Virus record (IMG/VR): IMGVR_UViG_3300030330_000815
Coordinates: 1-56,058 of that record
Length of the DNA: 56,058 nucleotides
DNA from: a virus
Taxonomy: Duplodnaviria > Caudoviricetes
Strand: one strand, 5' to 3'
Part shown: positions 4,308 through 50,279 of the stretch, in pieces
Layout of the letters: the number at the start of each line of letters is the position of its first letter
Numbering within the stretch: position 1 is the first letter of the stretch
Translations under genes and position numbers: made by a program
The notes under the pieces: generated by a model
Databases searched by the model: none
What the model was told of the DNA's origin: nothing
Seen by the model: the letters and a program-made list of their open reading frames with translations, nothing else

Positions 4308-4412
4308 TTATTTTCCAGTAATAGCTTTAATCACTGCTTTGCAACGTGCAATAATACATTTGCAAATACGAATAACTAAATGCACAAGGCAAAATTTACA
4401 TTCGCATTTCAT
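4308..4412 (-). CDS. 34-aa Cys-rich peptide MKCECKFCLVHLVIRICKCIIARCKAVIKAITGK
   Basis: Hand-translated; ATGA overlap with upstream stop; fills the gap exactly. Confidence 0.55.
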   Translation of the reverse strand: MKCECKFCLVHLVIRICKCIIARCKAVIKAITGK

Positions 4413-4765
4413 GATTTGTAGCCTCCTCCAGCTTCTTTGTAACGTTTCGCTAGCATTTGAGCTTTCCGAGCACTCCACTGTCCCGGCTTTCCGCCCTTTC
4501 CACCAGCCTTGATAGCATTAAACATGCGCTTTCGCATTTCTGGTTTCGTATAATTACCAGCTTCGTTTACACGCGACTTTGGTTTTTTAGTTGCTCCACC
4601 TGTAGCTTTTTTAACTACTGGCTTTTTCTTAGCTGGTTTCTTTTTAGATTTACCTGCAGTACTCAAAGCAATAGCTACCGCCTGTTTTTGAGGACGGCCC
4701 TCTTTTCTAAGTTTACGTATGTTTTTGGATACCTTCTTTTTAGACTTACCTTTTGCTAAAGGCAT
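4409..4765 (-). CDS. Basic protein, DUF5872-like N-terminal half
   Basis: NYTKP..RKR..IKAGGKGGKPGQWSARKAQ..A..YK..GGGY motif. Confidence 0.65.
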   Translation of the reverse strand: MPLAKGKSKKKVSKNIRKLRKEGRPQKQAVAIALSTAGKSKKKPAKKKPVVKKATGGATKKPKSRVNEAGNYTKPEMRKRMFNAIKAGGKGGKPGQWSARKAQMLAKRYKEAGGGYKS

Positions 4766-4769
4766 TATT

Positions 4770-4859
4770 TTAACCTACTACTATTGTAGCATAAACACTC
4801 GTTGCAACAGAGACGTGTGTAGTTGAGTACACATAAATAGCAGTAACATTAGTAGACAT
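4770..4859 (-). CDS. 29-aa peptide MSTNVTAIYVYSTTHVSVATSVYATIVVG (possible internally deleted gene)
   Basis: Hand-translated; AAGGA RBS upstream; lies between capsid terminator and next gene. Confidence 0.45.
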   Translation of the reverse strand: MSTNVTAIYVYSTTHVSVATSVYATIVVG

Positions 4860-4886
4860 AATTTTTCCTTTACTTTACTTTATAGT

Positions 4887-4919: not shown

Positions 4920-4946
4920 CTCTAATACTAAACTACTTGTCAGTTA

Positions 4947-5882: not shown

Positions 5883-5896
5883 TTTTCCTACTTCCC

Positions 5897-8775: not shown

Positions 8776-8778
8776 TGT

Positions 8779-8926: not shown

Positions 8927-11900
8927 TTAACTAAAGAACACATCACGTTCTGCCGCACGGCGTCGAACCAATCCAGCAAGTTTTTCACCGCCAGCTTTTA
9001 CAAATCCTTTGTCTTCATCAAAGAACTCTTCAGCCGCTCCTTCAACGTCACCCTGATTAAGTTTCTTCAAACCCTGACTACGAGCAATAGCACCTATGCC
9101 TACATTGTAAGCTAACGATTTAAGAGCTTCTTTCTGACCGGGAGTAACTTTTACCTTCAGCAGTTTATCAAGTTCTTTATCAAGATTATCTAAATCTTCT
9201 TGAGCAAGAGCCGAAGCTTCTTCTTCAGTTATCTCATCTGGAATAGCACGGCCAGATGTAGCGGCAGTACCATAGCCTACAGTACGAACACCAACTGAGT
9301 CGTCATAAGCCTTTTCTTCAAAACCCTCAAATTCTTTTACAAGGTCTAAAGAACTTTTATCCATTTTATCTCTTTCACTAATAGTTGGTTGACGTGAAGG
9401 CGTTCTAAAACTTTTTGCTTCACGAGCATCTGTGCCATATTCGTCAACAAGTTTTAAATCGTCCTGTATTCTTGGAACATCAGAAAGTTCATCCAAAGAA
9501 GAACCTTGTTTATCACGCTCTTGTTCATATCTGCCCTGAGCAAAATCACCTAGAATATCTAACTTCATACGCTCTTCAGGAGAAAGTGGCGTAAAAGTAG
9601 ATGTTTCTGTTTTTCCTAAAGACACTTTTGTATCTTCAAGCTCTTCACTTGGACGAATAGCAATACGCAAATCTTCTTCAGCTTCAGGCATGATAAGAGG
9701 AATCAACTCAGAAGCGCCTAGTTCTGATAGTACTTCTTTTGCTTGATCACCTACAATATTATCTTCCTGTTGATTGCGTATCTCTTGTAGCACGGCAGTA
9801 AGAGGTATTCCAGTTTGCTCTGCAATTTCTCTAATTTTATCTCCTGCTGGATAACGATCTGCTCTTGGAATATTAATTGGAGCACTATCGTCCATGCCTT
9901 CTTCGTAAGTAGCCATTGCTTCTTCAGAAGTATCAACAGTCAGTCTTCCTAGAAGAGTATCAATTTCACGAACACCCTGCGAGTAGTCATCTACTGTGCC
10001 GCCTTGAGCTAGATTTTGAGTTCTCGCTTCACGCTCTTTCATAAACAGTTCGCGCTCTTTAAGCATCGCATGAACAGCTTCAATAGCTAGTTTTGTTTCT
10101 TGATCTCGTATACTGGTTTCTCGCTTCATCTGCATGTTGCCAGCATCTTTGAGAGCACGAATACGACGATCAACTTCTCTGTCTTCTTTATCACTGATTT
10201 TAGAAGCAGCACGTAACTGAACTTCCTGCTGCTTAATAGCAAGCTCACGATTTTTAAGAGAAAGCTCTGCCGCATCTTTCGTAGCTTCAATCTGCATACC
10301 TTCGCGTTTAATGTCAAGAGACATACGCTCAAGTTCCATGCTTTGCTGTTCAAGAGTTTGAACACTATTAGCACCGCCCTGATTGGCCTGTAGAACCTGT
10401 TGAGCCGCTGCAGTAGTAAGCTCACCCATAATCTCAGGAGTAATCTCAGTATTAGTCTGCTGAAGCTGTTCCGCACCCATATCAACAAGACCACCCATCT
10501 GTTCTGCATACTGAAGAACCATATGCTCACGAATGTTAGCCTGTAGCACGGGAACAACAGTCTGCATCATCGGATTTTGACCGAGTGTCGGGTCTTGAAT
10601 GAAAGCAGACTTTACTGCAATGTGAGATGCATGATCCTGTTCTGGAAATGCTTTAATGGGCTTGCCCTGAGATGCAGCCTGAATATCCGTAATAGGATCG
10701 GCTGGCTGCGGTTGCATCGGGGCTGGCATGTACCGCTCTGGATTCTGAATGTTTGAAGCAGACAGAATACCTAGATGAACCTGTCGTAAATCGTACATTC
10801 CGGGCGGCGCTTGACTCGCCAACTGTAGCACCATTTGTGCCATAGCCAAGCGATGAGCAGCGGAGGGAATGTTAGGATCAGAAACAGGAATAACATCAAC
10901 CCTGCCATCAAAATCAGACTTAAAAATACTGGAGTCAATATTAGGAATTTGATATGGGTATACATCAGGCAGAAACTCAAAGTTTAAACGTGAAAGAATA
11001 TTAAACTCTTCACGCTGGCTATGATGTAGCCTTTTGTGTACAGCACTGAAGAACTTGGCACCTGCCTCTAGCAGAGCCATAGTCGTTCCTACTGGACCGT
11101 AGTTCGTGGCATCAGCAACAATCTGATCAGTCGTGTCTGCAAACTTTTGACCTGCAGACGTAAGAAAGCCCAGCATCTGAAACAGAACCTGTGATGGTTC
11201 TTTGTAAGGCAAAGGCACAATAGACTTTTGAAGGTCCATGCCTGTGGCTTCGACTTCACGAAACTCACCGGGAGAGATAGGATCGTTGCCACCCACAACA
11301 CGAACGCCACGAGCCTTGAATCCACCGGGAAGATTAGAGAACTGACCCGCATCTACAAGACTACGAAGCGCAGCCGTTGCAGACATTGTAAGATTGCCTA
11401 GTAGATGAATAAGGCCAAGGCCATAGAATCCAAAACCCGGAACAAACTTGTAGTGCGCGAAATAAGTTTCACGTTCGCGCCTTACATCATCTTTATTAAA
11501 ATTACGTCGTATAGCTAGAACTTGTCCGCTACTCTCTTCTACAGTGACGATGTAAGGATACGCTACGCCGTCAGGATCGTTGAACGGTTCTGGAAGATTA
11601 AGATAGCAGTGCTGTTCAAGAACAACATATTGCTGATCATAATCTTGAGAAGGTGCAAGACCCATCAGTGAGTCGATCTTCTGACCAAGCATAGACGGGT
11701 CAGGTGCCGAAGCTTGAGGAAGATCAATGTCTCGATACATGCCCACCGAAATTTCTTTTCGCAGTTCGTTGGGTGATCTATAAATTACATGTGTGTAACG
11801 GTCTGCCCTTTTCAAATCGGGAGCATGATAAGACACGTAAAATTGGTCTACGGGAACAAACTCAGAACAGGGACGTTCTATGCTTGGATCGTAGTAAATC

Positions 11901-12496
11901 TTTTTAAACGCAGAACCTACAAGCGGTAGGTGAAACAACATACGTTCAAATTCATCGAAGTACTCGCTGATCTGATCCGTAAGCTGATAGTTCATGAACT
12001 GTTGTACACGAGTTGCCTGTGCTTCCTTTTGAGGATCGGCAGAGCCAACTATCTGTGTACGTACTGGCCCACCCGGAGGAAACAGTTCAATAGATGCTTT
12101 ACTTTGAAACTTGATTGCTGATTCAATAATCAACGGAGAAACTGCAGTGCAAGCGCCTTCGAAAGGTTCAGTAGTTTCCTGCAGCTTCAAGCCAAGCAGA
12201 TCGAATCCACGTTCAAAAGTGCTTTCCCACTCTCCACGCGAATCACGATCTGCTTCAAACTGTTCGCAAACCATGCTGCCAATTTCTTGCAGATCATTAT
12301 CATCAAGATATTCTGCAAGGTTGGCATAGTGATCTTCTTCAACAAGAGCAAGTGCGGCCATATCCTCACTTAGCTCTACGCCTTCTAGTTCACCGTCTTC
12401 TATTTCAATGTCTATTTCAAGATCAGCGCCATCATCGCTGATACTATCATCTAAGCCACCGGGAAGAACTTCAAATGGATTGCGTTCTACAGCCAT
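8927..12496 (-). CDS. Portal protein with long acidic linker and C-terminal GH24 lysozyme
   Basis: aa ~55-650 portal motifs (PFEGAC, RV..FMNYQL, GSAFKK.YYD, GFGFYG.GL, PLPYKEPS, DV.PVSDPN); aa ~1045-1189 lysozyme EGFEEKAYDDSVGVRTVGYG..GLVRRRAAE. Confidence 0.9.
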   Translation of the reverse strand: MAVERNPFEVLPGGLDDSISDDGADLEIDIEIEDGELEGVELSEDMAALALVEEDHYANLAEYLDDNDLQEIGSMVCEQFEADRDSRGEWESTFERGFDLLGLKLQETTEPFEGACTAVSPLIIESAIKFQSKASIELFPPGGPVRTQIVGSADPQKEAQATRVQQFMNYQLTDQISEYFDEFERMLFHLPLVGSAFKKIYYDPSIERPCSEFVPVDQFYVSYHAPDLKRADRYTHVIYRSPNELRKEISVGMYRDIDLPQASAPDPSMLGQKIDSLMGLAPSQDYDQQYVVLEQHCYLNLPEPFNDPDGVAYPYIVTVEESSGQVLAIRRNFNKDDVRRERETYFAHYKFVPGFGFYGLGLIHLLGNLTMSATAALRSLVDAGQFSNLPGGFKARGVRVVGGNDPISPGEFREVEATGMDLQKSIVPLPYKEPSQVLFQMLGFLTSAGQKFADTTDQIVADATNYGPVGTTMALLEAGAKFFSAVHKRLHHSQREEFNILSRLNFEFLPDVYPYQIPNIDSSIFKSDFDGRVDVIPVSDPNIPSAAHRLAMAQMVLQLASQAPPGMYDLRQVHLGILSASNIQNPERYMPAPMQPQPADPITDIQAASQGKPIKAFPEQDHASHIAVKSAFIQDPTLGQNPMMQTVVPVLQANIREHMVLQYAEQMGGLVDMGAEQLQQTNTEITPEIMGELTTAAAQQVLQANQGGANSVQTLEQQSMELERMSLDIKREGMQIEATKDAAELSLKNRELAIKQQEVQLRAASKISDKEDREVDRRIRALKDAGNMQMKRETSIRDQETKLAIEAVHAMLKERELFMKEREARTQNLAQGGTVDDYSQGVREIDTLLGRLTVDTSEEAMATYEEGMDDSAPINIPRADRYPAGDKIREIAEQTGIPLTAVLQEIRNQQEDNIVGDQAKEVLSELGASELIPLIMPEAEEDLRIAIRPSEELEDTKVSLGKTETSTFTPLSPEERMKLDILGDFAQGRYEQERDKQGSSLDELSDVPRIQDDLKLVDEYGTDAREAKSFRTPSRQPTISERDKMDKSSLDLVKEFEGFEEKAYDDSVGVRTVGYGTAATSGRAIPDEITEEEASALAQEDLDNLDKELDKLLKVKVTPGQKEALKSLAYNVGIGAIARSQGLKKLNQGDVEGAAEEFFDEDKGFVKAGGEKLAGLVRRRAAERDVFFS

Positions 12497-12507: not shown

Positions 12508-12774
12508 CTACTTTCGATTATAACGAGCTTTACCGTAGCCCATAGGAACTTTACCACCTGCAGCCATACGAGCACCACCAGTTCCCGTATTTTTTGACAT
12601 AGCAGCAAGTTCTTTTTCTAATTGTTTTATTTCTTCTTCTTTATCTTTGTCGCCTTGCATTCCTTTATAGATCATGCCGGGAAGCATACCTACAGCAAAG
12701 CCCTTCATATCATCGGGAAGCCTGCCTGCAACCGCTGGAATTACTCCCATAAAATCTGTTTTTTTAATTCCCAT
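12508..12774 (-). CDS. Small late protein with MAxGG..GYGKA tail
   Basis: C-terminus MAAGGKVPMGYGKARYNRK shared in pattern with neighbours. Confidence 0.7.
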   Translation of the reverse strand: MGIKKTDFMGVIPAVAGRLPDDMKGFAVGMLPGMIYKGMQGDKDKEEEIKQLEKELAAMSKNTGTGGARMAAGGKVPMGYGKARYNRK

Positions 12775-42300: not shown

Positions 42301-45300
42301 CGTTAGCTGTCGTTGATCACGATTAAGAGCACGTAAAGGTTCTGCACCTATCTTAACTGATGCACCTTTAATAATGTTACGTATCTGTACACGTTTCTGA
42401 AGCGTGTTATAGAAAGCACGAAACAGTGGATTCTTCTGCGCTAGATCAGAGGGATGAGAAATAAGACGACCCATGAAACCAAGATCACGCAAGGAGTTGT
42501 TAAAGAACCCATCTTTAAATGGATTAGCAACGCCACCAAAGCCCGGAGTTCTCTTGATAGGAGCACCTACCAGTGCTTCATAGTTAGGCGCAGCATTTAT
42601 ACCTGCGTACTTTTTCAGAGCCTGATCATCCAAACGTCCTGCTTGTCTTGCTAGCTCACCACTATCAAAGTCTTCAAAGAGTTTTTTAACCTGTTCAATC
42701 TCTGATGTAGCATCTAGGTCAACTATCTTCTTAATAAAGCCTTCGCCCCGCGCCCAGCTAGACACTGCATCAAAGAAATCTTTAAGTGTTTTTAGCCGCC
42801 GTCTAACCGGAGCTTGCATTCCTTTGATTGGAACACCCGCTGCCCACAGAGAAAAGATTTGAGCCTGTGCCTCTTCCAAACGATGCTCTGGAGAATAAGC
42901 GTCAAACCACTCTTTTGATACTCCATTTCTGATAGCAAACTCAGGCGTGATAACTCTGTCGAGCAACGCCTGATCATCCTGAGTAAGAACTAAACGCTTA
43001 CCAGCATGAAACGCTTCATGATAAGTAACACCAAGAAGCCTTGAATAATCATTAAAGCTTTCAGGAAAACCGTGTTCGCTGGTGGGAAGACTTGTTGTCT
43101 GAATAGCTATTCTTGTTGGAACACCTTGACGACCATCATAATCTCCACCAACTTCTACATAACCATATGGAGTTTTTACAAAAGGCTGTTCACCTTCTTT
43201 ATCAAATCTAATAGTAGCAGCGCCTAAAGTATTTCTAGCTAGATACTTATTAGCTTCTTGACCTATGTAGATAGCTATCTCTTCTGCACGATCCGCTCTT
43301 ATTGGTCCTACCATTCTAAGAATAGCGTTCTTTAAGTTTTGTATAGCAGCACTATCGACAACGCCATCTGTAGCCGTCTTTTGATCTGTAATCATAACAT
43401 TCTCAAAAGACGTTACATCTTTAATGTTACCATCTCCAAGATACTGACCAACTTCTCCTTTTGCATATGCATCTAGAAAGTTTTTAAATTCTTTGGCGTA
43501 AGGTTTAGCTCTTGCCCTTGAATAACCGCTTAACAAGTTTGATCCATCAGCATCAACCAACACACCAGAGTTTGTCAATGCTGCAACATTTACTCTTCCG
43601 TCTGGTCTTCTGAAACTTTCTATTGCAGCTTCAAAATCTTGAGCGCCTTCCTGATCTGATCCAAACACACCAACAATTCTAGCAAAGTCTTTTTTGATAT
43701 CTCTAATGGTTTGCTGTGCTGCTGCATTAGGTTGTTTTTCTTGAGCAGGTAGCTTGTTAGGATCAGTAGTCGTTCCAGTGGGAGAAGGTGTTACTTCTTG
43801 TGCTGCATCAGGTTCACCTTCAGTAGTCGTTCCAGTGGCAGGAGGTGTTACTTCTTCTGTTACATCAGGTTCTACTACAACCTCTTCTTCAGGTTCTGCT
43901 TCAGGTTCTGCTTCAGGTTCTGCTTCAGGTTCTGCTTCAGGTGCTGCTTCAGGTGCTACTTCAGGTGCTACTTCAGGTGCTGCTTCAGGTTCTGCTTCAG
44001 GTTCTGCTTCAGGTGCTGCTTCAGGTTGTTTTTTAGGGTCTGCTTTTTTTACAGCTTCTTCTTTGGGTATTAGCTTTCTAACATTATTTACTGCTTCATT
44101 AGCAAAAACAGTATTACGCTCACGAATAGCTTTCATGATACGTGCGTTAGAGATGCCCGCCTTACGCGCCTCTCTAATAGAAGACAAAAGATTATAACGT
44201 ACTTGCAGTCTTTGATTAGCGTCTAGTGAAGGATCATTTTCTACTGCATTGACTGCTTCATTCTGATTTGCTTCACCAAACTGATAGCCTGTCCTTAGTC
44301 GAATGCGTTCAGCAACTTCACCGCGAGAAGCTTTTCCTTCTGCTTCTTGAACGTAAGCTTCTTCAACAAATGCACCAAGTTGACCAACACCCTGCGGACC
44401 TGCTTTGTCGTAAACAGCTTCTATCTCTTCAAAGGTAAACTCTGCACCTGTGTCAGGATTTTGAGTAACACTAAGAAGATCACGAGCATCACGTTCATAT
44501 TTAGTTGCTGGATTTCTTACATGACGTTCATAAACTTCAGACAGTTCTGAGCTTGTCATCTTGTTTAGCTGGTTCTGATCGTACATGGGAGTACCATCTT
44601 CCAGCTTTTGATCCATCAGATAAGCTAGAACTTCAGGACCGCCATAGACATTTTCCATGACTGACGTTGTTACAAGTTCATTAGCTCTCTGAACACGCGC
44701 AGTAGCATCGTTTATAACTGCTTGATACTGGTCTGCTAGTTGCTGATTACCTTCATCTAAAGCTTGAGCTTGTGCTGCTTCAGCCTGTTCTAAAGTTGTA
44801 ACATCCGCCTCTACTTGCTTTCGTACATTTTTATATTCTTCAGAGTTTGTGTACTCGTCAAACTTTTTACGAACACGACGCGCTTTACGAAGCCCAAAGC
44901 TTTCAATGATACCTGCAAGAGTTCCACCAGCAGCACCACCATACAGACCTTCTTCCATGATCGCAGGATCAAGAAGTTCTCTATCTGGATTATAAACATA
45001 TTTTTCAATAGCATTTTGAGCTATAGCAGCTACCGCTTCTTGAGAACCTTCAAGTCCAGCAGTCTTTGCTATACGAACTCCAAATTCTTTAAACGGTTTA
45101 TCTGAAATACCTAAGTTAGCTGCCAAGTCTCCACGCTGTGCTTGCTTTGTTCCTATTTTTTGAACTGCGCTTTCTAAAGTATTTGTAAGTTCTGTCTTAC
45201 CACCGTATATCTTTTTGATACGATTGATTGCTTTGATAGGAGCAAGTACTTCAGTCAGACCAACACCAGCGCCAAACAATGTAGCTTGAGTAAGCTGTTC

Positions 45301-45906
45301 ATCACTAGCACCAGCTTCTTTAGCACGTTCAAAAGCTTCATCTGCACCAGAACCAGCAGCAAGAGATGCCGCAAAACCAAGAGAAGCCCCGCCACTAATC
45401 GGAGCCGCTATTATTGCGGGAGCAGCAAAGCCTAAAATAGAACCAAAAGCATTGGCAAATTTAAAGAGAGTTTCTTTATCTTTAGACGCTTTTATCTCTT
45501 GAGCGCCTTGTTTAAGAGCATCACCGGCTTGACTAACCCAACCGTCATCATCTCCAGTAGGGTCCAATCCAACACGTTCTGCAATGCGCTCAATACCAGT
45601 CAAGCCAGAGCCAACAGCGTACTGTGCGCCAGAGCGTAGTCCAGCAAGTATCTCACCTAGATAAGTACGATCTTGATCACTTACTTGTGCAGCTTCTTGA
45701 GAGGCAGGAGTAAACTTAGGAGGAGTAAGTCCACCTCTTTCCATTTCAGACAAAAGATTATTAATGCCTATTAGCTCTTGATCTATAGCCTGAAAAGTAG
45801 GGTCTTGTAGATTAGCTAAAGCAATAGCATCTTGAACCTGTTGAGTATTGTACTCATCAGGTATCTCTAGCTGGCCTAACCCCTGTAACTGAACAAGTGT
45901 CGGCAT
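39310..45906 (-). CDS. Large internal virion / ejection protein (polyvalent-protein-like)
   Basis: 2198 aa, last of the ejection-gene block; HEAFH..EEAQA zincin-like motif; GYFPNYRYGD resembling PLxRFG domain; PEAE repeats. Confidence 0.75.
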   Translation of the reverse strand: MPTLVQLQGLGQLEIPDEYNTQQVQDAIALANLQDPTFQAIDQELIGINNLLSEMERGGLTPPKFTPASQEAAQVSDQDRTYLGEILAGLRSGAQYAVGSGLTGIERIAERVGLDPTGDDDGWVSQAGDALKQGAQEIKASKDKETLFKFANAFGSILGFAAPAIIAAPISGGASLGFAASLAAGSGADEAFERAKEAGASDEQLTQATLFGAGVGLTEVLAPIKAINRIKKIYGGKTELTNTLESAVQKIGTKQAQRGDLAANLGISDKPFKEFGVRIAKTAGLEGSQEAVAAIAQNAIEKYVYNPDRELLDPAIMEEGLYGGAAGGTLAGIIESFGLRKARRVRKKFDEYTNSEEYKNVRKQVEADVTTLEQAEAAQAQALDEGNQQLADQYQAVINDATARVQRANELVTTSVMENVYGGPEVLAYLMDQKLEDGTPMYDQNQLNKMTSSELSEVYERHVRNPATKYERDARDLLSVTQNPDTGAEFTFEEIEAVYDKAGPQGVGQLGAFVEEAYVQEAEGKASRGEVAERIRLRTGYQFGEANQNEAVNAVENDPSLDANQRLQVRYNLLSSIREARKAGISNARIMKAIRERNTVFANEAVNNVRKLIPKEEAVKKADPKKQPEAAPEAEPEAEPEAAPEVAPEVAPEAAPEAEPEAEPEAEPEAEPEEEVVVEPDVTEEVTPPATGTTTEGEPDAAQEVTPSPTGTTTDPNKLPAQEKQPNAAAQQTIRDIKKDFARIVGVFGSDQEGAQDFEAAIESFRRPDGRVNVAALTNSGVLVDADGSNLLSGYSRARAKPYAKEFKNFLDAYAKGEVGQYLGDGNIKDVTSFENVMITDQKTATDGVVDSAAIQNLKNAILRMVGPIRADRAEEIAIYIGQEANKYLARNTLGAATIRFDKEGEQPFVKTPYGYVEVGGDYDGRQGVPTRIAIQTTSLPTSEHGFPESFNDYSRLLGVTYHEAFHAGKRLVLTQDDQALLDRVITPEFAIRNGVSKEWFDAYSPEHRLEEAQAQIFSLWAAGVPIKGMQAPVRRRLKTLKDFFDAVSSWARGEGFIKKIVDLDATSEIEQVKKLFEDFDSGELARQAGRLDDQALKKYAGINAAPNYEALVGAPIKRTPGFGGVANPFKDGFFNNSLRDLGFMGRLISHPSDLAQKNPLFRAFYNTLQKRVQIRNIIKGASVKIGAEPLRALNRDQRQLTSVMIQLANNGEVEPTIDIENGTVEVSIPQTRYDGIEAEYGTEDRFLSMLGVDPSTVSIQKREEGVTFTLSGQPEVANAVAGVRSTSNFLSNNLFTSILHSFINGRELKESGLADIIRTVDDAGQPADYNNVIADLRKFLDVDNNPFLERVKEDDGSSYIRIKDSFKNATIEEKKAAFPGLKEEYLAKPEKFEKLNDAIQLVQELLASRKDGYFPNYRYGDTGIIVRNKDGDVVYFETVSSTFLDRFGSRKKERLNEIRLELQAQYPGMTVSDPFKIEYDKNKKTFRGLKPEEQAALLESLNILEEIALRKAGTTSDDASTLIDEIANGLFKKRINRLIQPRQNIPGYINSRNNDGAYLLDSFVRSIDTTANTASSLFTEPELFGSLTDLEAARGTQPKYHDRAKEIYDYVNNPRNEAPMARAFAFHMFLGFNVSSALVNLTQTFQATYPVLGAITGLGSGGVYVAKALKDSSALYGKMLGSKDKPSVGEYGFSFFKTTTAPDGTVSVEVDMDKKPDSVTEEEYRYLAELFRTGVIQPIQNIDLGAARLQELDVRRGVAPVLNASGYAFGVVENTNRIAAALAFYRAAKDPKNRKNFEAFVSGTRFGDQDVSGLDTEDFAKLMGTMGVEKTQFFMGQENRPAIMQGPVMSVVTQFQSFLYQMVGMYGDALFKSLNGRMDAIPEPLRPAARKIAMKQLAAMTLSMMAFGGAMGLPFMENLKELIKFFTEQFGDQVGEDFEEELRVTLGETMGYTATDALLRGIPRMLGADVSRRTGYGDVAPIRLLMGGDPVDFAGPAISRAVDMVKGTKEAYNNGDLLGAAVGVMPIAARNAYDALVKEPSVGTFTARGQQLLPADSLSRTERLMKTFGFTPTTVSRARERRGLENYLSYRSKVGKDVYTNRMSKNLGAYLAAAQRGDGDSAANFLAKYYTDFLHTMQHDFDNIMEPSRQYRINPKTPMNRVMRAMEPFGYSTGPRVPKAVRPELLTRILGEAAYSE
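43882..44025 (-). repeat. 12-bp tandem repeat, 12 units, encoding PEAE/PEAA/PEVA linker
   Basis: Units CCTGAAGCAG(A/C)A and variants. Confidence 0.95.
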
Positions 45907-45909: not shown

Positions 45910-48456
45910 TTAAATCCTTTGAATGCTCGTTATACCGTATCTATCTTTTAGATCATCTGGCATCACGCCGCCAGCCGCTGCTCCACCCGTTGTTCTGAAT
46001 CGAGCATATGCTGATTTCTGTGCATCAATTATAGCTTCTGGAGAAAGGTTTTTAACATCTGCATCTTCACCAAACAAATCTTTTAGCAGAAGCTGTTTTG
46101 CCATGTCTGGCATTTTCTCATAAGATTTAATAGCTAGTTCTCTATCTTTAGTAAGAACATCATTTCTAAACTTAGATATATCTAAAAGAAGTTGTCTTTG
46201 AGCAGTTTTACTTTTAGTTGATTTTGATATTGAGTCAATAAGACCGGCCTGCCCAATAACATCTCTATAGCGTGCTGTTGCTCTAGCAAGCTCAATATCT
46301 TCAGGCCGTTTAACCTGAGACAATAGTTTAGCAGCGTTGGTCAAACCTTCTTCACGCCCTGTGCTAGCAGCCAACGCAGCAGAAGCCAGACCAAACCAAT
46401 CAGTAAGGTCTTCTGCTTTCTTAGGTTCTGCAGCAGCAGCGGGAGGAGCATCAGCGGCAGTAGGTTTAGCTTCTTCTATATCTTGTTCCATTTCAGAAAG
46501 AGGATCAGCGTCTAGTGCAAAAGCTTCAACAGCTTCTTCTGCTGTTTTAGGACGGTCTTCGGAGGGAGGCATTATACGACCAACTCCAAAAGAACCATAA
46601 CCTAATCCTTGGTCTTTCAAAGCCTTACTTCTTGCAGCACCTTTTTCTTGTAGTATTCCATCTTCTACAGCTTTAGCAACAGCCGCTGCTCTCTCTTTTT
46701 CTGACAAAGCACTAACATCTACTTTAGCTATAGCCGATGCTCTTTCTTTTGCTTTATCTGGATCAAGTCCCGCTTCAATCAAACGTTTAGTTTCTGTTTC
46801 TATTATTTTATCAACTTTAGCTGCTTGAGCTTGTTCAGCAGCAGCTATTGCACCTCTGCCTTTTACAGTTCCTTTTGCAACATAAGTTGGAAGACCTGAA
46901 CCAACTACCTCTCCAACACCTTTTCCATAAATTAATTCTGCAGCTTTTTTCCTAGACTCAGTAACACTTTCACCTAAATCTCTTTGCCTTCTTTCGACTT
47001 CTGCTTGAAAGGCTGCTTGTTTCTCTTTACCGGCCTTAATATTAGCAAAAAGTTCTGCATCGAATGGATTATTAAATCCTGAACCTATCCTTTCAAGACT
47101 AGAAGTAAAACCTTCTTTAATCTCTCCAAGAATATTTCTATCAGGTTTCGTTGTATTTTTAGAAACACCAGTAGGCGCTGGAATCACAGGAGGAGGACTA
47201 CCAAGACCAGCATTGGCTCGTGCTTGTGCCATGCTCTTGACCAATGCAGGAGGTACGGGAAGACGCCTTCTCTGAAACTCTTTTATAAGTGCTGAAGTAT
47301 TTGGATCATTTGGTGTAGCTCTGCCAGCTAAACTGTACAGATAATTTTGAGAGAATACTTTAAAGTCAGGTCCAGAATGAATTTGTGTAATTCCGCCGGG
47401 AGCATACGAAGCAACAGGATTACCAACCATGCTGCTTAGTCCTTTATCGTCTCCCACACTTTCTGTGTATTGCTGAGACGGAGCACCGCCAAAGGCAAGA
47501 CCTACGATGCCGCCATCATTAAACAAGCCGAAGCCTTTACCAAGAGCACCTGCCGCTGCAGCCTGTCCAAGCATCTGTTGAGTGGCACTAAAAGGAGCGG
47601 CTGTTGTTTTATATGTGTTCATAGGCGGCTGGTAGCCACGAAGAATACCAGAATAAAAACCAATCTGTTGTTTTGGATAATCAACTTCACGCTGAAACTC
47701 TTCAAGACCGCGACCAATAGCTTCCGTCTGCAGACCACGCTGCGCTTCACCAGCGGCTAGCTGACGACCAACACCAGCAGAAAGAATACCTGCCTCATGT
47801 ACTCCAAGACCTGCAAGCTGTCCACCTATATCAGAGACAGCCTGACCTGCACCTATCTGCCTTTGACGCTCTTGCTCAAGACGCTGAGTAGCACGATCAA
47901 ATGCCGTAGCCCCTCCAGTAGTTTGAATGTCAGCAAGGCGCTGTCCAAGATTACGTTCAAACTCTGCTTCAAGAAGAGCACCACGCGAGCCACCAAAAGC
48001 ACCAGACCTTGCCGCCTGTGCCTGAATCGCCTGTCTTTGCGGCTCTGCTCGTCGCAGTTCCTCTCGTATAGCAATATCCGTAACAGCTTGCTGAAACGGA
48101 TTCATCGCCTCTCTTAGTTCTTCACCGCCTATTCTCTGAGCACCAGCAGTCGCTATATCGCTACCTGTAAGAGAAAGCCCCTGCCCACCACGAATAGCAT
48201 CCATACCTGTCTCAGCCATCTCCGTTGATTTTAAACGATCTAAAGCTGTTTGCTGGGCAGGATCAACAGGAGCAAGAGTTTGTTCTCCTACTTCCTGAAG
48301 ACGCCCTCTCTCTGGTGGCGTAATATAGGCTTCTTTAGAGATAGCCGAAGAACGTCGAAAGATGTCCTCAAGAAACGGTCTGAAGAAATCAGGAATCTCG
48401 CTTCTAACTACCTGAGTTTGTGTTGGTGCCGGGGGCGGCGGTGACCCTTTACCCAT
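45910..48456 (-). CDS. Internal virion / DNA ejection protein
   Basis: MNPFQQAV, GAFGGSR, Q/A/G-rich helical N-terminal half typical of podovirus DNA-transfer proteins. Confidence 0.7.
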   Translation of the reverse strand: MGKGSPPPPAPTQTQVVRSEIPDFFRPFLEDIFRRSSAISKEAYITPPERGRLQEVGEQTLAPVDPAQQTALDRLKSTEMAETGMDAIRGGQGLSLTGSDIATAGAQRIGGEELREAMNPFQQAVTDIAIREELRRAEPQRQAIQAQAARSGAFGGSRGALLEAEFERNLGQRLADIQTTGGATAFDRATQRLEQERQRQIGAGQAVSDIGGQLAGLGVHEAGILSAGVGRQLAAGEAQRGLQTEAIGRGLEEFQREVDYPKQQIGFYSGILRGYQPPMNTYKTTAAPFSATQQMLGQAAAAGALGKGFGLFNDGGIVGLAFGGAPSQQYTESVGDDKGLSSMVGNPVASYAPGGITQIHSGPDFKVFSQNYLYSLAGRATPNDPNTSALIKEFQRRRLPVPPALVKSMAQARANAGLGSPPPVIPAPTGVSKNTTKPDRNILGEIKEGFTSSLERIGSGFNNPFDAELFANIKAGKEKQAAFQAEVERRQRDLGESVTESRKKAAELIYGKGVGEVVGSGLPTYVAKGTVKGRGAIAAAEQAQAAKVDKIIETETKRLIEAGLDPDKAKERASAIAKVDVSALSEKERAAAVAKAVEDGILQEKGAARSKALKDQGLGYGSFGVGRIMPPSEDRPKTAEEAVEAFALDADPLSEMEQDIEEAKPTAADAPPAAAAEPKKAEDLTDWFGLASAALAASTGREEGLTNAAKLLSQVKRPEDIELARATARYRDVIGQAGLIDSISKSTKSKTAQRQLLLDISKFRNDVLTKDRELAIKSYEKMPDMAKQLLLKDLFGEDADVKNLSPEAIIDAQKSAYARFRTTGGAAAGGVMPDDLKDRYGITSIQRI

Positions 48457-48889
48457 GACAAACCTCTTTCTCTACCAAATAAAACTTTTGATGATAATTA
48501 TCTTTTTTCATTCTTTTAATCCAACCTTTTCGTCCACCAGTTTCAATAGAAGAACATTTATTGAGAACCGCAAACTTTTCTAAATCAGCTAACATTGGAT
48601 CGTACCAACTATCTAAATTCTTTCCTGAACATAAAAGAAGAGTAAGAACTTTTTTACGTGGATAGTTACAAAAGTGAGAAACTACTAATCCATCTATCTT
48701 TTCATTTACCGCATCAAACGCTAACCAAAGCTGCATCTGATCTGCATGTAAAGCTTCTTTTATGTCCTCTTTATTATATCTTCCACCAGTATAAGGAATA
48801 ACTTTATCTAATAATTTGTCTACTTCATCTGTTTCTAATACTGGATTATAGTTTAGTATATCAGCACCGAGCTTAACTATTTTGTGCAT
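48449..48889 (-). CDS. GNAT-like virion assembly protein
   Basis: QLW, YPRK..L....G, FA...C..IE..GR.GW pattern; between ejection genes. Confidence 0.6.
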   Translation of the reverse strand: MHKIVKLGADILNYNPVLETDEVDKLLDKVIPYTGGRYNKEDIKEALHADQMQLWLAFDAVNEKIDGLVVSHFCNYPRKKVLTLLLCSGKNLDSWYDPMLADLEKFAVLNKCSSIETGGRKGWIKRMKKDNYHQKFYLVEKEVCHG

Positions 48890-48890
48890 T

Positions 48891-50279
48891 TTATCCCATC
48901 ATAGAAGAAAGCGTCCTACTCAGCGGCCCCGGCTGTTGTGGAGTTCCGTTCTTGTCTTCACGAACATTCTTCATAAGATTATAAAGTTTTTCGTGTCCCT
49001 TCGTAATATTTCCGCCACCTATTTCAGCAACTTTATTACGGGGAATAACAAACTCTCCACGAGATAGCCGTGCCGCTTGTCGTCCTCCTATTGTAGCCTG
49101 AACTTTATCATCAAGTCCAGAACCGGGACCGCCAACTAATCCCTGCAAACCACTGTTAATTACATTTCCTTTTTGATAGTTGGCTCCACCAGCACTCATT
49201 CCAAGTTCATTTGCAAGACGCTTTGCTCCTGCAGTCGTATCACCATCTCCAATGTCAGACACAACATCAGCAGTAATAACAAAATCATTTTCATTTAGCT
49301 TTGCAGGACCGCCTTCAGCCATTACCGGCTGGGGTTGTAAGGAATAAGGATTAAAGAAAGTACGGCTTCCTATTGGCGCTAGCCGCCTTTGCATCGGTGC
49401 CGCAGGAGAAATAGTGTACGGGTCTTCTTCTTCCATAGAGAAAGGTTCTGGTTCGGGTGGTGTAAGAGCATACTTAATACCTTCACCTGCCGCTTGCATT
49501 GCAATATTTGACATAGGAGTTGCGCCTAACTTCTGTAGATAAGTAGGCTCTACTATCGACGCAGTATCAGCACCTACATCTCCTTGAACAGGCGGAAGAT
49601 CGCTTATTCCTGCGTATTCAGGAGACGTAAAAAAACCTTCGCCAGCTTTTGTTATGTTTGTACCTGTTAAGCTTGAAGCAGCTTCTTCTCCTCCAAACTC
49701 TCCTACAGTTTCTCCTAACGTTGTATCTCCTACAATGTCTGATGCAATACCATCTGCACCACCAAATATCTTTCCAGCGCCATAAGAGAACAATGCAGAC
49801 ATAGCAGCGTCTCCAAGTATCTCATCTGGCTCTTTGCCTTCAAGAACACCTACAGCCGCGCTAGAAGCAGCGGAAGCTCCTACAGGACCAAGAAAAGGAG
49901 TAAGAAGAACTGTACCAGCTATGCGTCCCAACATTCCAAGAATACCACCCCTTCTATAATGAAGAGGAATATCAGCAATTCCGCCGCCAGCCATTTCTAC
50001 ACCGCGTCCTCTGAGAACATCAGCGTAACTAATTTTTCCATCTTTATTTAAATCAGGAAAACCAGCAGCGCCTCCTTCAGCCATTTGAATGCCACGTATC
50101 TTTGCAAGCATTTCCATAATACGTGTGCGTTGCTCTGGGCTTATAGATGATATATTCGGCACTCCTCCGGTGGGTGCTCTTCCAGTAGGCATTCTTCCAG
50201 AAACACCTTCTAAACCTACTTGAAGACCGGCGTTTCCCATGTTCATGTTAAATCCAACCATTAGTGAAAATCCTGCCAA
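48891..50279 (-). CDS. Internal virion protein with multiple hydrophobic-xxGG motifs, EF-hand-like loop and duplicated GEFV module (start may be ~50247)
   Basis: MAEGG x2, MAGGG, YRRGG, MSAGG; DLNKDGKISYAD; GPG.G.DD...ARLSRGEFV. Confidence 0.7.
   Translation of the reverse strand: MAGFSLMVGFNMNMGNAGLQVGLEGVSGRMPTGRAPTGGVPNISSISPEQRTRIMEMLAKIRGIQMAEGGAAGFPDLNKDGKISYADVLRGRGVEMAGGGIADIPLHYRRGGILGMLGRIAGTVLLTPFLGPVGASAASSAAVGVLEGKEPDEILGDAAMSALFSYGAGKIFGGADGIASDIVGDTTLGETVGEFGGEEAASSLTGTNITKAGEGFFTSPEYAGISDLPPVQGDVGADTASIVEPTYLQKLGATPMSNIAMQAAGEGIKYALTPPEPEPFSMEEEDPYTISPAAPMQRRLAPIGSRTFFNPYSLQPQPVMAEGGPAKLNENDFVITADVVSDIGDGDTTAGAKRLANELGMSAGGANYQKGNVINSGLQGLVGGPGSGLDDKVQATIGGRQAARLSRGEFVIPRNKVAEIGGGNITKGHEKLYNLMKNVREDKNGTPQQPGPLSRTLSSMMG

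What the first reader, a model, noticed from the sequence alone, without database searches (positions are those of the whole stretch)
4409..50279. Shared hydrophobic-x-x-G-G tag across late proteins: candidate processing or head-loading system
Seen: [MFYL]-x-x-G-G-x-[VAILPT] recurs in otherwise unrelated late proteins. Instances: portal LAQGGTV (aa 829, where portal-like sequence gives way to the lysozyme extension); 12508 MAAGGKV; 12780 MAHGGAV; 13051 MAHGGAA; 45910 FNDGGIV, LAFGGAP, YAPGGIT (clustered at a domain boundary); 48891 MAEGGAA, MAGGGIA, YRRGGIL, MAEGGPA, plus the variant MSAGGAN; 4409 the looser KATGGAT. Established: adenovirus protease cleaves (M/I/L)xGG, ASFV protease cleaves GG-X, and lambda gpH carries FATGG/YATGG in its processed C-terminal region. 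No canonical prohead protease is visible here. Inference: a genome-wide cleavage or docking signal that turns late proteins into polyproteins or routes cargo into the head.
Basis: partly seen in the sequence, partly recalled or inferred. Interest (0 to 1): 0.85.

Follow-up and report, generated by a model that had tools for sequence, protein, structure and literature searches.

The report
Shared hAxGG tag in phage ejection proteins
A short peptide motif (hydrophobic-Ala-x-Gly-Gly) really does recur, far above chance and conserved in relatives, in the proteins this short-tailed phage carries inside its head and injects into the host; it probably holds these proteins together, but whether it is a docking tag or a cutting site is still open.

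Summary
Every listed instance is present. The tighter [MFY]-A-x-G-G gives 8 against about 1.

The signal is narrower than "late proteins". It sits in the ejection-protein cassette behind the tail nozzle (48891, 45910), in three small basic paralogs upstream of the portal, and at the junction where the portal body meets a lysozyme extension.

The motif is conserved in homologs at 20-85% identity. It lies in segments AlphaFold2 models with low confidence. It travels with an uncharacterised C-terminal "GEFV" module that has 6550 cluster representatives at E<=1e-3.

In 72 unrelated viral loci the motif occurs in the GEFV gene and the genes 2-3 places downstream (49 of 114 ORFs). It is absent from all 303 ORFs 2-7 places upstream.

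No protease domain was found in any late ORF. The adenovirus spacing does not fit, and the lambda gpH likeness is not statistically supported.

Best reading (0.4): a docking or zipper motif that assembles the ejection proteins near the portal. A cleavage site (0.2) is not excluded.

The parts
48891..50279 (-). GEFV protein (462 aa from the TTG; the database form starts at Met7). It holds the gp14-like position right behind the nozzle. It has hydrophobic helices at aa 114-172 and five motif copies.
   Evidence: Position by synteny with Pa223.
50064..50084 (-). MAEGGAA (aa 66-72 of 48891)
   Evidence: Conserved as MA[EQ]GG in 9 of 13 aligned homologs and displaced by an insertion in the 51-53% group.
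49938..49994 (-). MAGGGIADIPLHYRRGGIL (aa 96-114): the bipartite form MAxGG[IL]Ax[IL]P...YxxGGI
   Evidence: GG 99-100 and 111-112 are invariant in 13 sequences. The same layout occurs in downstream genes of other loci.
49302..49322 (-). MAEGGPA (aa 320-326), directly before the first FV module
   Evidence: A321, G323, G324, P325, A326 invariant.
49212..49307 (-). First, shorter copy of the FV module (NDFVITADVVSDIGDGDTTAGAKRL)
   Evidence: HMM of the module matches aa 325-356, domain i-E 1e-8.
49179..49199 (-). MSAGGAN (aa 361-367), between the two modules
   Evidence: Only partly conserved (GMGGKAG in the 51-59% relatives).
48894..49142 (-). C-terminal GEFV module (aa 380-462), which contains no motif copy
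   Evidence: 6550 cluster representatives at E<=1e-3, nearly always at the extreme C-terminus. It is the only confidently modelled part of the protein, pLDDT 77-88.
48449..48889 (-). 146-aa protein between the GEFV gene and the ejection gene. It has no motif.
   Evidence: Homologs in 33 of 72 loci, 30 of them at position +1. phrog_22172, function unknown.
45910..48456 (-). 848-aa ejection protein, gp15-like position
   Evidence: phrog_4287 'DNA ejection protein', E 1.4e-9, aa 59-311. Homologs in 66 of 72 loci.
47377..47625 (-). Low-confidence linker (aa 278-360) that holds FNDGGIVGLAFGGAP (312-326; DNA 47479-47523) and YAPGGIT (351-357; DNA 47386-47406)
   Evidence: pLDDT below 50 between a helical N-domain and a confident small helical domain. 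G315, G316, G354, G355 invariant in 16 sequences at about 20% identity.
45961..45981 (-).
   Evidence: Aligns with LAEGGAV of the 75%-clade relative G002.
8927..12496 (-). Portal protein fused to a C-terminal lysozyme (1189 aa)
   Evidence: Portal PHROG match aa 161-612. Phage_lysozyme PF00959 aa 1054-1183, E 4e-34.
9992..10012 (-). LAQGGTV (aa 829-835) at the portal/extension junction
   Evidence: Of 28 loci examined (from 80), 6 of 6 extended portals keep [ML]A[QK]GG at 826-829. The 22 of 22 unextended portals end at 822-888 aa and have no motif.
8930..9991 (-). Extension: acidic linker (aa 836-1049) plus lysozyme domain (aa 1050-1189)
12508..12774 (-). Small protein (88 aa), MAAGGKV at aa 70 (DNA 12547-12567), tail GYGKARYNRK
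   Evidence: The same protein is in relative L012.
12780..13034 (-). Small basic protein (84 aa), MAHGGAV at aa 63 (DNA 12828-12848), tail GQGYGKARKG
13051..13416 (-). Small basic protein (121 aa), MAHGGAA at aa 95 (DNA 13114-13134), tail RGVGKAQRGFGKATYSDKLI
   Evidence: In 6 homologs the motif reads L[SN]GGG or SGGG, while the GG and the tail are conserved.
39310..45906 (-). Giant protein (2198 aa), gp16-like position. MAFGGAM at aa 1906 (DNA 40171-40191) lies inside a hydrophobic stretch.
   Evidence: Conserved as MAFGGAM at aa 1927 in G002. Probably a different kind of site.
50566..52404 (-). Tail nozzle protein. It marks the upstream edge of the cassette and has no motif.
   Evidence: phmmer against solved structures: 9nwi_Y E 4.7e-13, 8zkk_O 'nozzle gp16' E 3e-6. 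Homologs in 61 of 72 loci.
4409..4765 (-). Lys-rich 118-aa protein with KATGGAT (DNA 4589-4609). Probably not part of the system.
   Evidence: It does not fit the regex and the context is K/A/G-rich. Conservation was not tested.

Best explanation
The window is a whole short-tailed phage genome. Behind the tail nozzle gene lies an ejection-protein cassette: 48891 (gp14-like position), 48449, 45910 (gp15-like) and 39310 (gp16-like).

These proteins, three small basic proteins encoded just upstream of the portal, and the lysozyme-bearing C-terminal extension of the portal share one short linear motif. Its core is [MFYL]-A-x-G-G followed by one to four hydrophobic residues. The fullest form is [MYF]AxGGI[VI]AFxxGG. 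It always lies in segments predicted to be unstructured.

I read it as a docking or 'zipper' element. It would be a short strand, bounded by flexible Gly-Gly, that pairs with like copies or with a common partner. In that way it would tie the cargo that must leave through the portal into one assembly next to the portal. T7 gp6.7 does something similar with two short loops.

Shown: the motif exists, is non-random, is conserved, is confined to this set of proteins, and is linked to the GEFV module.

Inferred: that it binds something, what it binds, and that the carriers are inside the head (from synteny and a PHROG name only).
For: (1) Enrichment survives whole-protein and local block shuffles.

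(2) Conservation at low identity. The GG pairs at 315-316 and 354-355 of 45910 are invariant in 16 sequences at about 20% identity. In 48891 the motif residues are invariant across 13 homologs at 58-85%. The portal junction copy is kept at 75% and 95% identity.

(3) An unbiased sample. 149 proteins were found through the motif-free GEFV module alone. Of these, 129 have at least 100 aa outside the module and carry 68 [MFY]AxGG against 10.7 shuffled (max 19). Permuted motifs are near expectation at 18, 8 and 5 against about 10. 51 of the 129 carry at least one copy.

(4) Positional specificity in 72 viral loci. Copies occur in 34 of 62 ORFs at +2 and 15 of 52 at +3 from the GEFV gene. They occur in 5 of 63 at -1 and 5 of 70 at +1. 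They occur in 0 of 303 at -2 to -7 and in none of 67 ORFs on the opposite strand.

(5) Features of a binding element rather than a bare cut site. Copies come in tandem 8 residues apart. The hydrophobic I-[VI]-A-F after GG is conserved. Strict copies lie in the last 40 residues of 9 of 263 cassette ORFs against 0.9 shuffled (max 5), and in 2 of 440 other ORFs. Where the gp15-like protein is split into two genes, the first gene in several loci keeps a copy (often the looser x[KE]GG[LIV] form) 8-33 residues before its own stop.

(6) AlphaFold2 gives pLDDT below 50 at every copy in 48891 and 45910, while flanking domains are confident.

(7) Co-occurrence. Small motif-bearing ORFs upstream of the portal are found in 6 of 6 loci with an extended portal and 0 of 22 without.

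(8) Precedent. T7 gp6.7 is 88 aa, and its gene lies upstream of the portal gene (gene order recalled, not from a call). Two short loops of gp6.7 bridge the portal barrel, gp14 and gp15 (PMC11784390, section 6 read). Pa223 gp54 sits around the portal crown (preprint passages).
Against: No partner is identified. A full-length AlphaFold2 model of 48891 does not dock its own motif copies onto anything.

The motif is not obligatory. 78 of 129 GEFV-module proteins lack the strict form. Relative G001, whose portal is 55% identical, has only looser copies (MQDGG, FRKGG, LQAGG). In homologs of 13051, M-A is replaced by L-S or L-N.

The virion location of the carriers is inferred, not measured. Low pLDDT may partly reflect shallow alignments (16-64 rows).

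The junction position in the portal, and a lysozyme that must reach the periplasm, fit cleavage at least as well as docking.
Confidence: 0.4

Rival explanations
1. Cleavage site. A protease cuts after Gly-Gly. This would free the lysozyme from the portal, separate modules of the ejection proteins, and trim the C-terminal tails of the small proteins.
For: The portal copy lies exactly where unextended portals of relatives end (822-888 aa). A portal-tethered lysozyme must somehow reach the cell wall.

In relative G001 a T4-lysozyme-like domain (aa 213-338, E 2e-8 against solved T4 lysozymes) sits inside the GEFV protein, bounded by MQDGG and FRKGG. So the same cargo is bracketed by hxxGG in both placements.

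One family member starts where another has YNNGG followed by the same domain (P0046 against P0029). All copies lie in accessible, low-confidence segments.

Lambda gpH is cut somewhere in its Gly-rich C-terminal region by an unknown protease at an unknown site (PMC12617516, passages). A cut after FATGG would give 80.1 + 12.2 kDa, against about 78 + 14 kDa quoted there.
Against: No peptidase family was found in any of 40 late ORFs or the 10 largest early ORFs.

The spacing differs from the recalled adenain rule (hydrophobic at P5, not P4).

Tandem copies 8 residues apart and a conserved hydrophobic P1'-P4' are unusual for a cut site. Copies 13-30 residues from natural C-termini would release only tiny peptides.

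The lambda module likeness is not statistically supported.
Confidence: 0.2
2. Post-ejection element. The Gly/Ala/Ile/Val/Phe-rich segment acts only after ejection, either as a membrane-active (fusion-peptide-like) patch or as a strand that zips subunits into the trans-envelope conduit.
For: All carriers are candidates for ejection. The fullest form, MAGGGIVAFxxGG, is short, hydrophobic and Gly-rich. 48891 also has predicted hydrophobic helices at aa 114-172. A published review describes ejection proteins as refolding after exit (PMC8954989, passages).
Against: The portal, small-protein and GEFV-proximal copies (LAQGGTV, MAHGGAV, MAEGGPA) are much less hydrophobic. Eight hydrophobic residues cannot span a membrane. 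Nothing in the sequence separates this reading from docking inside the head.
Confidence: 0.2
3. No common function. The copies are linker or turn residues of modules spread by duplication and recombination among ejection proteins, plus some chance hits.
For: The three small proteins are paralogs, and 48891 has a duplicated hAxGG+FV unit. About 6-7 of the 17 regex hits are expected by chance. The loose regex is only weakly enriched in neighbours of other loci (237 against 198-205). Domain swapping among ejection proteins is well known (PMC8954989).
Against: The GG is invariant and the flanks are conserved at about 20% identity while surrounding low-complexity sequence is not alignable. The strict motif is 3-9 fold over local-composition shuffles in three independent data sets. 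Portal, small proteins, 48891 and 45910 share no other detectable similarity.
Confidence: 0.15

Closest known systems
T7 internal core and small core protein gp6.7 (with gp14, gp15, gp16)
   Same: The cassette has three proteins of rising size behind the tail genes. Small proteins of about 85-120 aa are encoded just upstream of the portal. In T7, short peptide segments of gp6.7 glue the portal barrel, gp14 and gp15 (PMC11784390).
   Different: No sequence similarity to T7 proteins was tested or found. A Foldseek search with the 45910 model gave only generic coiled coils. T7 has no repeated shared motif that I know of (recalled). Here one motif recurs in all partners.
Capsid targeting sequence of T4 internal proteins, and encapsulin cargo-loading peptides
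   Same: A short conserved peptide on otherwise unrelated cargo destined for the inside of an HK97-fold shell, sometimes at a terminus.
   Different: Both comparisons are recalled, not tested. The T4 tag is N-terminal and is removed by the prohead protease, and encapsulin tags bind the shell. Here copies are internal, tandem or near the C-terminus. No protease and no partner are known.
Adenovirus protease (adenain) and ASFV pS273R Gly-Gly cleavage sites
   Same: A Gly-Gly preceded by a hydrophobic residue, found in several virion core proteins including small basic ones.
   Different: The recalled consensus (M/I/L)-x-G-G puts the hydrophobic residue at P4. Here it is at P5 with Ala at P4. No clan CE peptidase domain is found in the genome.
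C-terminal region of lambda tape measure protein gpH
   Same: FATGG (aa 733), GEFV, LYRLM and YATGG (aa 778) occur in the same order as hAxGG, GEFV module, LYNLM in 48891. That part of gpH is unresolved in cryo-EM, and gpH is cut nearby at an unknown site.
   Different: hhalign picks this region as the top hit, but at 18.6% and 11% probability. An HMM of 130-residue C-termini of the module family does not report gpH even at E<=10 among 773 sequences. 48891 has no TMP_2 or Tape_meas_lam_C match.
Bruynoghevirus Pa223 ejection proteins gp56, gp54, gp53
   Same: The nozzle protein is homologous (9nwi_Y, E 4.7e-13). The gene order is the same: nozzle, gp14-like, small ORF, gp15-like, gp16-like.
   Different: tblastn of 48891 and of a GEFV family member against 50,697 phage records did not return Pa223-type phages. 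So the GEFV module and motif are apparently absent there.

Membership tests
Substrates of a viral Gly-Gly-specific cysteine protease (adenain / ASFV pS273R type) | Consensus (M/I/L)-x-G-G|x, hydrophobic residue at P4 (recalled) | tested here: not met
   All 8 strict [MFY]AxGG copies in the window have the hydrophobic residue at P5 and Ala at P4 (MAxGG x7 and YAPGG; LAQGG and LAFGG follow the same rule). Across 68 copies in 129 unrelated proteins, position -2 from GG is Ala by construction and position -3 is Y/M/F.
Substrates of a viral Gly-Gly-specific cysteine protease (adenain / ASFV pS273R type) | A cognate peptidase encoded by the virus | tested here: not met
   Pfam scans of all 40 late ORFs and the 10 largest early ORFs give no peptidase family. 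Eighteen small early ORFs were not scanned, and a novel fold would be missed.
Substrates of a viral Gly-Gly-specific cysteine protease (adenain / ASFV pS273R type) | Cleavage after GG seen in virion proteins | not testable with these tools
   Needs virion mass spectrometry.
Lambda-type tape measure protein C-terminal region | Pfam TMP_2 and Tape_meas_lam_C domains | tested here: not met
   gpH matches both. 48891 matches neither.
Lambda-type tape measure protein C-terminal region | Statistically supported similarity of the hAxGG-GEFV segment | tested here: inconclusive
   hhalign's top hit is exactly this segment, but at probability 18.6% and 11%. hmmsearch with the module HMM reports no hit to gpH.
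Podophage ejection-protein cassette (gp14/gp15/gp16-like) | Location directly behind the tail nozzle and needle genes, in the order small, medium, giant | tested here: met
   The nozzle homolog is at 50566-52404. The order 48891 (462 aa), 45910 (848 aa), 39310 (2198 aa) follows. The same order appears in 72 loci and in Pa223.
Podophage ejection-protein cassette (gp14/gp15/gp16-like) | Sequence or fold similarity to known ejection proteins | tested here: inconclusive
   45910 aa 59-311 matches phrog_4287 'DNA ejection protein', E 1.4e-9. The Foldseek PDB search has no hit with E<=0.001. 48891 has no PHROG or Pfam match.
Podophage ejection-protein cassette (gp14/gp15/gp16-like) | Presence in virions and ejection into the host | not testable with these tools
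   Needs proteomics or infection assays.
GEFV-module proteins (uncharacterised; no Pfam or PHROG model) | C-terminal module G-x-G-x-x-D-x-(8-12)-A-R-L-S-x-G-E-F-V-[VI]-P...G-x-G...L-Y-x-x-M at the extreme C-terminus | tested here: met
   phmmer with aa 380-462 finds 6550 representatives at E<=1e-3 and 515 at E<=1e-10. The module HMM matches 48891 at E 2.8e-45.
Terminal cargo-loading tags (T4 CTS, encapsulin CLP) | Short conserved peptide at a terminus of unrelated cargo proteins | tested here: inconclusive
   Strict copies lie in the last 40 residues of 9 of 263 cassette ORFs against 0.9 shuffled, and near the C-terminus of the three small proteins. Most copies are internal: 49 of 100 have more than 400 residues after them.
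Terminal cargo-loading tags (T4 CTS, encapsulin CLP) | Binding of the tag to shell, scaffold or portal | not testable with these tools
   No partner was identified.

The most novel reading that the evidence does not exclude
The hAxGG copies are recognition sites of a still unidentified Gly-Gly-directed processing activity, either from the host or from a phage protein of unrecognised fold. That activity would turn the portal-lysozyme fusion and the ejection proteins into polyproteins. It would release a free lysozyme and separate ejection modules inside the head. The same chemistry would explain the unmapped cut in lambda gpH near FATGG.
Probability: 0.15. Interest if true: 0.85.

Novelty: new variant of a known kind. 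Interest (0 to 1): 0.6.

Why it matters
It is poorly understood how short-tailed phages load a defined set of proteins into the head and arrange them for ordered exit. The known cases (T7, P22, N4-like, Pa223) show no common sequence signal.

Here one short motif marks the ejection proteins, the portal-proximal small proteins and a portal-borne lysozyme. It recurs with strict positional specificity in many uncultured phage genomes. It also travels with a C-terminal module that has thousands of relatives but no Pfam or PHROG model.

That gives a concrete, mutable handle for asking what recruits or releases ejection proteins: Gly-Gly to Ala-Ala, or loss of the IVAF stretch. Cultured carriers exist for the test (Synechococcus phage MinM2 and its Planktothrix-phage twins, and Caulobacter phage GB2A).

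If the motif turns out to be a cut site, it would reveal a processing system with no recognisable protease.

Tried and rejected
1. Co-folding the GEFV module (48891 aa 375-462, alignment A2) with the motif linker of 45910 (aa 298-368, alignment A5). The verdict was 'no answer', score 0.00 against a mark of 0.32, and the controls were not run. This counts neither for nor against binding.

2. The idea that the GEFV module is a LexA/signal-peptidase-like Ser-Lys protease. In many family members G-D-G-M-S-D-S-I-P-A ... G-A-K-R-L recalls the S24/S26 motifs (recalled). I dropped the idea because the Ser positions read D-D-K in 48891 and are absent in lambda gpH. No structural test was made.

3. Homology of the module to lambda gpH. 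See: not supported by HMMER, weak by hhalign.

4. Caulobacter phage GB2A's 'tail length tape measure protein' as proof that the module occurs in true tape measure proteins. Its gene neighbourhood is the same podophage-type cassette, so the name is probably automatic.

5. Looking for a protease. The 340-aa protein at 7064-8086 had no solved-structure match and only a weak Atlas lead to a scaffold family (score 0.88, 14% of members).

6. Foldseek of the 45910 model against the PDB gave only generic coiled coils, best E 0.23. A profile of A2 and a profile of A6 against PDB sequences gave nothing meaningful.

7. PHROG and Pfam on 7 distant GEFV proteins and PHROG on 46 long ones gave no common family. 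Cluster names: only one of the members listed carries a name, 'hypothetical protein'. The Atlas on 48891 aa 300-462 returned only unnamed viral clusters.

8. Pelagibacter phage HTVC023P, the nearest named phage by terminase at 38%. It has no small motif proteins between terminase and portal. Its only hAxGG strings lie in Gly-run fibre-like repeats, the capsid protein and one more ORF, so it was not a useful comparator.

9. Literature. A full-text search for FATGG, YATGG, MAxGG, 'AxGG motif' and GEFV listed only gastro-oesophageal papers among the 15 shown, all with zero counts for the first four terms. A search for tape-measure cleavage sites gave nothing on this motif. So I found no description of the motif in that library. 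Subscription journals are not covered. Supplements of the papers read (Pa223 table 2, T7 figures S6-S7) were not opened.

10. blastp of the window's lysozyme domain against ORFs of G001-G003 found only the G002 portal. The lysozyme in G001's GEFV protein was then shown through solved T4 lysozymes instead.

11. Two selection biases. The first family sample (40 proteins) came from a word-index search with the whole 48891, so motif words may have helped pick candidates. I therefore repeated the test with the motif-free module. In one search the GEFV ORF was recognised by a regular expression in 72 of 80 loci, and the other 8 loci were dropped. In one search only 28 of the 80 portal loci were given to the script.

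Full report
WHAT THE WINDOW IS. The 56,058-base window is a complete virus record. Late genes lie on the minus strand (1-16423 and 34421-56038) and early genes on the plus strand.

The late genes include a small and a large terminase subunit. The large subunit is 38-40% identical to those of Pelagibacter phage HTVC023P-type phages. There is a 1189-aa portal whose C-terminus carries a Phage_lysozyme domain. There is also a GroES-like protein, a Mu gpT-like capsid protein, two SU10-type adaptors and a tail nozzle protein. The nozzle matches solved nozzle/tail-hub chains: 9nwi_Y at E 4.7e-13 and 8zkk_O at E 3e-6.

Behind the nozzle lie a 100-aa ORF, 48891-50279 (462 aa), 48449-48889 (146 aa), 45910-48456 (848 aa, PHROG 'DNA ejection protein') and 39310-45906 (2198 aa). 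In Pseudomonas phage Pa223, whose nozzle is the 9nwi chain, the genes after the tail are a gp14-like, a small, a gp15-like and a gp16-like ejection protein (preprint 10.1101/2025.06.11.659172, passages read). By synteny I assign 48891, 45910 and 39310 to those three roles. This is inference.

THE OBSERVATION. The regex [MFYL]xxGGx[VAILPT] hits 17 times in 40 late proteins. Whole-protein shuffles give 5.7 (0 of 2000 reach 17). Shuffles inside 10- or 20-residue blocks, which keep local composition, give 6.5-6.9 (0 and 2 of 1000).

The signal is carried by a tighter form. MAxGG occurs 7 times against 0.24, and [MFY]AxGG 8 times against about 1.0-1.1. Roughly six of the regex hits are therefore expected by chance. 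Early proteins have none of the tight form, but only 0.03 were expected, so that contrast is weak.

The three small proteins are paralogs with a common tail G[YF]GKA, and 48891 holds a duplicated unit. The independent carriers are therefore 48891, 45910, the portal extension, the small-protein family and perhaps 39310.

CONSERVATION.
- 48891: in 13 homologs at 58-85% identity, the GG of MAGGGIA and YRRGGIL and the residues A321, G323, G324, P325, A326 are invariant. MAEGG before FPDL is kept even where an insertion displaces it.
- 45910: in 16 sequences at about 20% identity, G315, G316, G354 and G355 are among only 22 invariant columns.
- Portal: I examined 28 of 80 related loci. The 6 with a lysozyme extension (95% and 75% identity) all keep [ML]A[QK]GG at residue 826-829. 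The 22 without an extension end at 822-888 residues and have no such motif. The motif therefore sits at the junction and came with the extension.
- Small ORFs with the motif upstream of the portal occur in those 6 loci and in none of the 22.
- Relative G002 (portal 75% identical) keeps the copies at homologous places in portal, GEFV protein, ejection protein and giant protein.
- Against this, homologs of 13051 read L[SN]GGG or SGGG instead of MAHGG. What is conserved there is GG plus the tail RGVGxAQRGFG[KR]AxYSDKLI.
- Relative G001 (portal 55% identical) has no strict copy, only MQDGG, FRKGG and LQAGG.

STRUCTURAL CONTEXT. An AlphaFold2 model of 48891 (55-row alignment) has a mean pLDDT of 48. 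Only aa 405-450 of the C-terminal module are confident, and all five motif copies lie in stretches below 50.

A model of 45910 aa 1-430 (64 rows) shows a long-helix N-domain. The linker at aa 278-360, which holds the three copies, is below 50. A confident small helical domain follows at aa 365-415.

The copies thus behave as short linear motifs in flexible linkers. Low confidence may partly come from shallow alignments.

THE GEFV MODULE AND THE WIDER FAMILY. The C-terminal 83 residues of 48891 contain no motif copy. phmmer with them finds 6550 cluster representatives at E<=1e-3 and 515 at E<=1e-10 among 1.84 billion proteins, nearly always at the very C-terminus.

Neither Pfam nor PHROGs has a model for this family. 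The only name listed in ten clusters is 'hypothetical protein'.

Of the 149 best hits, 129 have at least 100 residues outside the module. There [MFY]AxGG occurs 68 times against 10.7 in shuffles (max 19). The permuted controls [MFY]xAGG, GGxA[MFY] and A[MFY]xGG give 18, 8 and 5 against about 10. 51 of the 129 carry at least one copy.

The consensus of 46 long members shows a duplicated unit, hAxGG followed by an FV module, just as in 48891 aa 320-462.

POSITIONAL SPECIFICITY IN OTHER GENOMES. A GEFV ORF was recognised in 72 of them.

The strict motif occurs 76 times in these GEFV ORFs outside the module, against 8.6 shuffled. It occurs 100 times in 703 same-strand neighbours against 26.1 (max 40). 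It does not occur in the 67 opposite-strand ORFs. Block shuffles give the same picture: about 10 and about 30-33.

By gene position relative to the GEFV gene:
- +2: 34 of 62 ORFs carry the motif
- +3: 15 of 52
- +4: 2 of 16
- +1: 5 of 70
- -1: 5 of 63
- -2 to -7: 0 of 303

Homologs of 45910 occur in 66 of 72 loci, of 48449 in 33, of the nozzle in 61 and of the giant protein in 15.

The downstream copies share an extended consensus after a Pro/Gln-rich stretch: G[IL]xx[LI]P, about 7 residues, then [MYF]AxGGI[VI]AFxxGGxV. The window's FNDGGIVGLAFGGAP and MAGGGIADIPLHYRRGGIL are variants of it.

Where the gp15-like protein is split into two genes, the first (about 310 aa) in several loci ends 8-33 residues after a copy, often the looser x[KE]GG[LIV] form. 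Strict copies lie within the last 40 residues of 9 of 263 cassette ORFs against 0.9 shuffled (max 5) and of 2 of 440 other ORFs. For the loose form the excess is marginal, 21 against 8.4 with a maximum of 22.

Cultured carriers:
- Synechococcus phage MinM2 and its Planktothrix-phage twins. In the 24-kb MinM2 stretch examined, YAEGG lies before the module, YADGG and YAVGG lie in the gene two places downstream, and YAKGG and YASGG lie near the C-terminus of a protein about 9 kb upstream of the cassette.
- Caulobacter phage GB2A, with one copy directly before the module.

THE LYSOZYME. In the window the only lysozyme found is on the portal. In G001 a T4-lysozyme-like domain lies inside the GEFV protein (aa 213-338, E 2e-8 against solved T4 lysozymes), between MQDGG and FRKGG.

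A published review notes that muralytic domains move between ejection proteins (PMC8954989, passages). The portal extension thus looks like an ejection-protein module that has been attached to the portal. It must either be cut off or reach the wall on its 214-residue acidic linker.

WHAT IT IS NOT.
- Adenain-type sites have, as I recall, the hydrophobic residue at P4. Here it is at P5 with Ala at P4.
- No peptidase family appears in any of the 40 late ORFs or the 10 largest early ORFs. The capsid protein's PHROG rows named 'protease' match only the capsid part of fused profiles.
- Lambda gpH does show FATGG, GEFV, LYRLM and YATGG in the same order. A 2025 paper states that gpH is cut in its Gly-rich C-terminal region at an unknown site by an unknown activity, and that residues about 690-817 are unresolved (PMC12617516, passages). 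A cut after FATGG would give 80.1 and 12.2 kDa. Even so, hhalign rates the likeness at only 18.6% and 11% probability. An HMM built from 130-residue C-termini of the family does not report gpH at E<=10 among 773 sequences. I treat the lambda case as a resemblance only.

MECHANISM. The facts are these:
- a conserved Gly-Gly with Ala two residues before it and a bulky hydrophobic residue before that;
- one to four hydrophobic residues after it;
- tandem copies eight residues apart;
- flexible context;
- restriction to the proteins that sit by the portal and leave through it;
- copies kept near the C-termini of separate proteins.

I think the most likely reading (0.4) is a docking or zipper strand that ties these proteins together near the portal. 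It would be comparable to the two short loops by which T7 gp6.7 bridges the portal barrel, gp14 and gp15 (PMC11784390, section 6).

Cleavage after GG (0.2) is favoured by the portal junction and by the need to deliver the lysozyme. It lacks a protease and fits the tandem and C-terminal copies poorly. A role only after ejection, in membrane insertion or assembly of the conduit (0.2), cannot be told apart from docking by sequence. The remaining possibility (0.15) is that the copies are linker residues spread with duplicated modules.

The one complex prediction I could run gave no verdict and is listed only under what was tried.

NOVELTY AND VERDICT. A shared, positionally specific short motif across the ejection proteins, portal-proximal small proteins and a portal-borne lysozyme has not, as far as my searches show, been described. 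It is coupled to a very large module family that has no Pfam or PHROG model.

The kind of thing is known: peptide-mediated assembly or targeting of internal virion proteins. This form of it is new, and its function is untested.

Noticed in passing
window 8927-12496 (-): The portal is fused to a C-terminal T4-type lysozyme through a 214-residue acidic linker. The fusion is kept in relatives at 75% and 95% identity and absent at 52-56% identity. No other lysin was seen in the late ORFs scanned, so this may also be the phage's only muralytic enzyme.
   Followed up: partly
L092 3023-4336 (record G001, 22023-23339): In a relative whose portal lacks the extension, a T4-lysozyme-like domain (aa 213-338) sits inside the GEFV ejection protein. 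The muralytic module has moved between portal and ejection protein.
   Followed up: yes
window 48894-49142 (-) and 49212-49307 (-): The C-terminal 'GEFV' module has 6550 cluster representatives at E<=1e-3 but no Pfam or PHROG family. It is duplicated inside 48891. It is a candidate for a new domain family definition.
   Followed up: partly
P0022, P0029, P0042, P0044, P0046, P0055; G001 23771-25729; G003 9909-11687: A second conserved module, GRxGD[ST]xLVHMxxxExxxLxxxxxxGGSLTxNPxTGLPEA, lies at or near the N-terminus of many GEFV-family and ejection proteins, often right after a MAxGG copy. It is absent from the window and had no family match in the proteins scanned.
   Followed up: no
window 12508-13416 (-) and 4409-4765 (-): Four small, very basic proteins lie in the head-gene block. 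Three have Arg/Gly-rich C-terminal tails (RGVGKAQRGFGKA, GYGKAR). They may be DNA-associated internal proteins. The conserved tail GG..RGVG.AQRGFG[KR]A.YSDKLI is unexplained.
   Followed up: partly
window 36129-38444 (-): A 771-aa late protein combines a methyltransferase domain (aa 285-410) with an MptE-like domain (aa 518-685). This is unusual among structural genes.
   Followed up: no
window 39310-45906 (-): The C-terminal third of the giant 2198-aa protein matches PHROGs of 3000-4600-residue proteins, one of them named DarB-like antirestriction. It has no Pfam domain.
   Followed up: no
window 8129-8548 (-): A GroES-like co-chaperonin gene (Cpn10, E 4e-10) lies between the portal and the capsid genes, as in HTVC023P.
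   Followed up: no
window 3077-3748 (-) and 53353-54012 (-): There are two SU10-type adaptor paralogs at opposite ends of the record. This fits two stacked adaptor rings, as described for Pa223, and a circularly permuted or terminally joined late operon.
   Followed up: no
window 48449-48889 (-): A 146-aa protein is conserved at position +1 in 30 of 72 loci, with 33 hits in all. By eye it has a GNAT-like strand pattern and several Cys and His residues. Its function is unknown and it was not folded.
   Followed up: partly
L162, L163, L134, L170 (gene -1 of the GEFV gene): Large proteins (594-2144 aa) upstream of the GEFV gene end with a common tail: [FY]A[QE]GG[IVM]V, then an acidic stretch, then LL/LI-x-ILKG. 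This may be an extended C-terminal version of the tag.
   Followed up: no
L179 5498-7240 (Caulobacter phage GB2A gp065c): This gene is annotated 'tail length tape measure protein', but it sits in the same nozzle-to-ejection cassette and carries the GEFV module. The name is probably wrong.
   Followed up: partly
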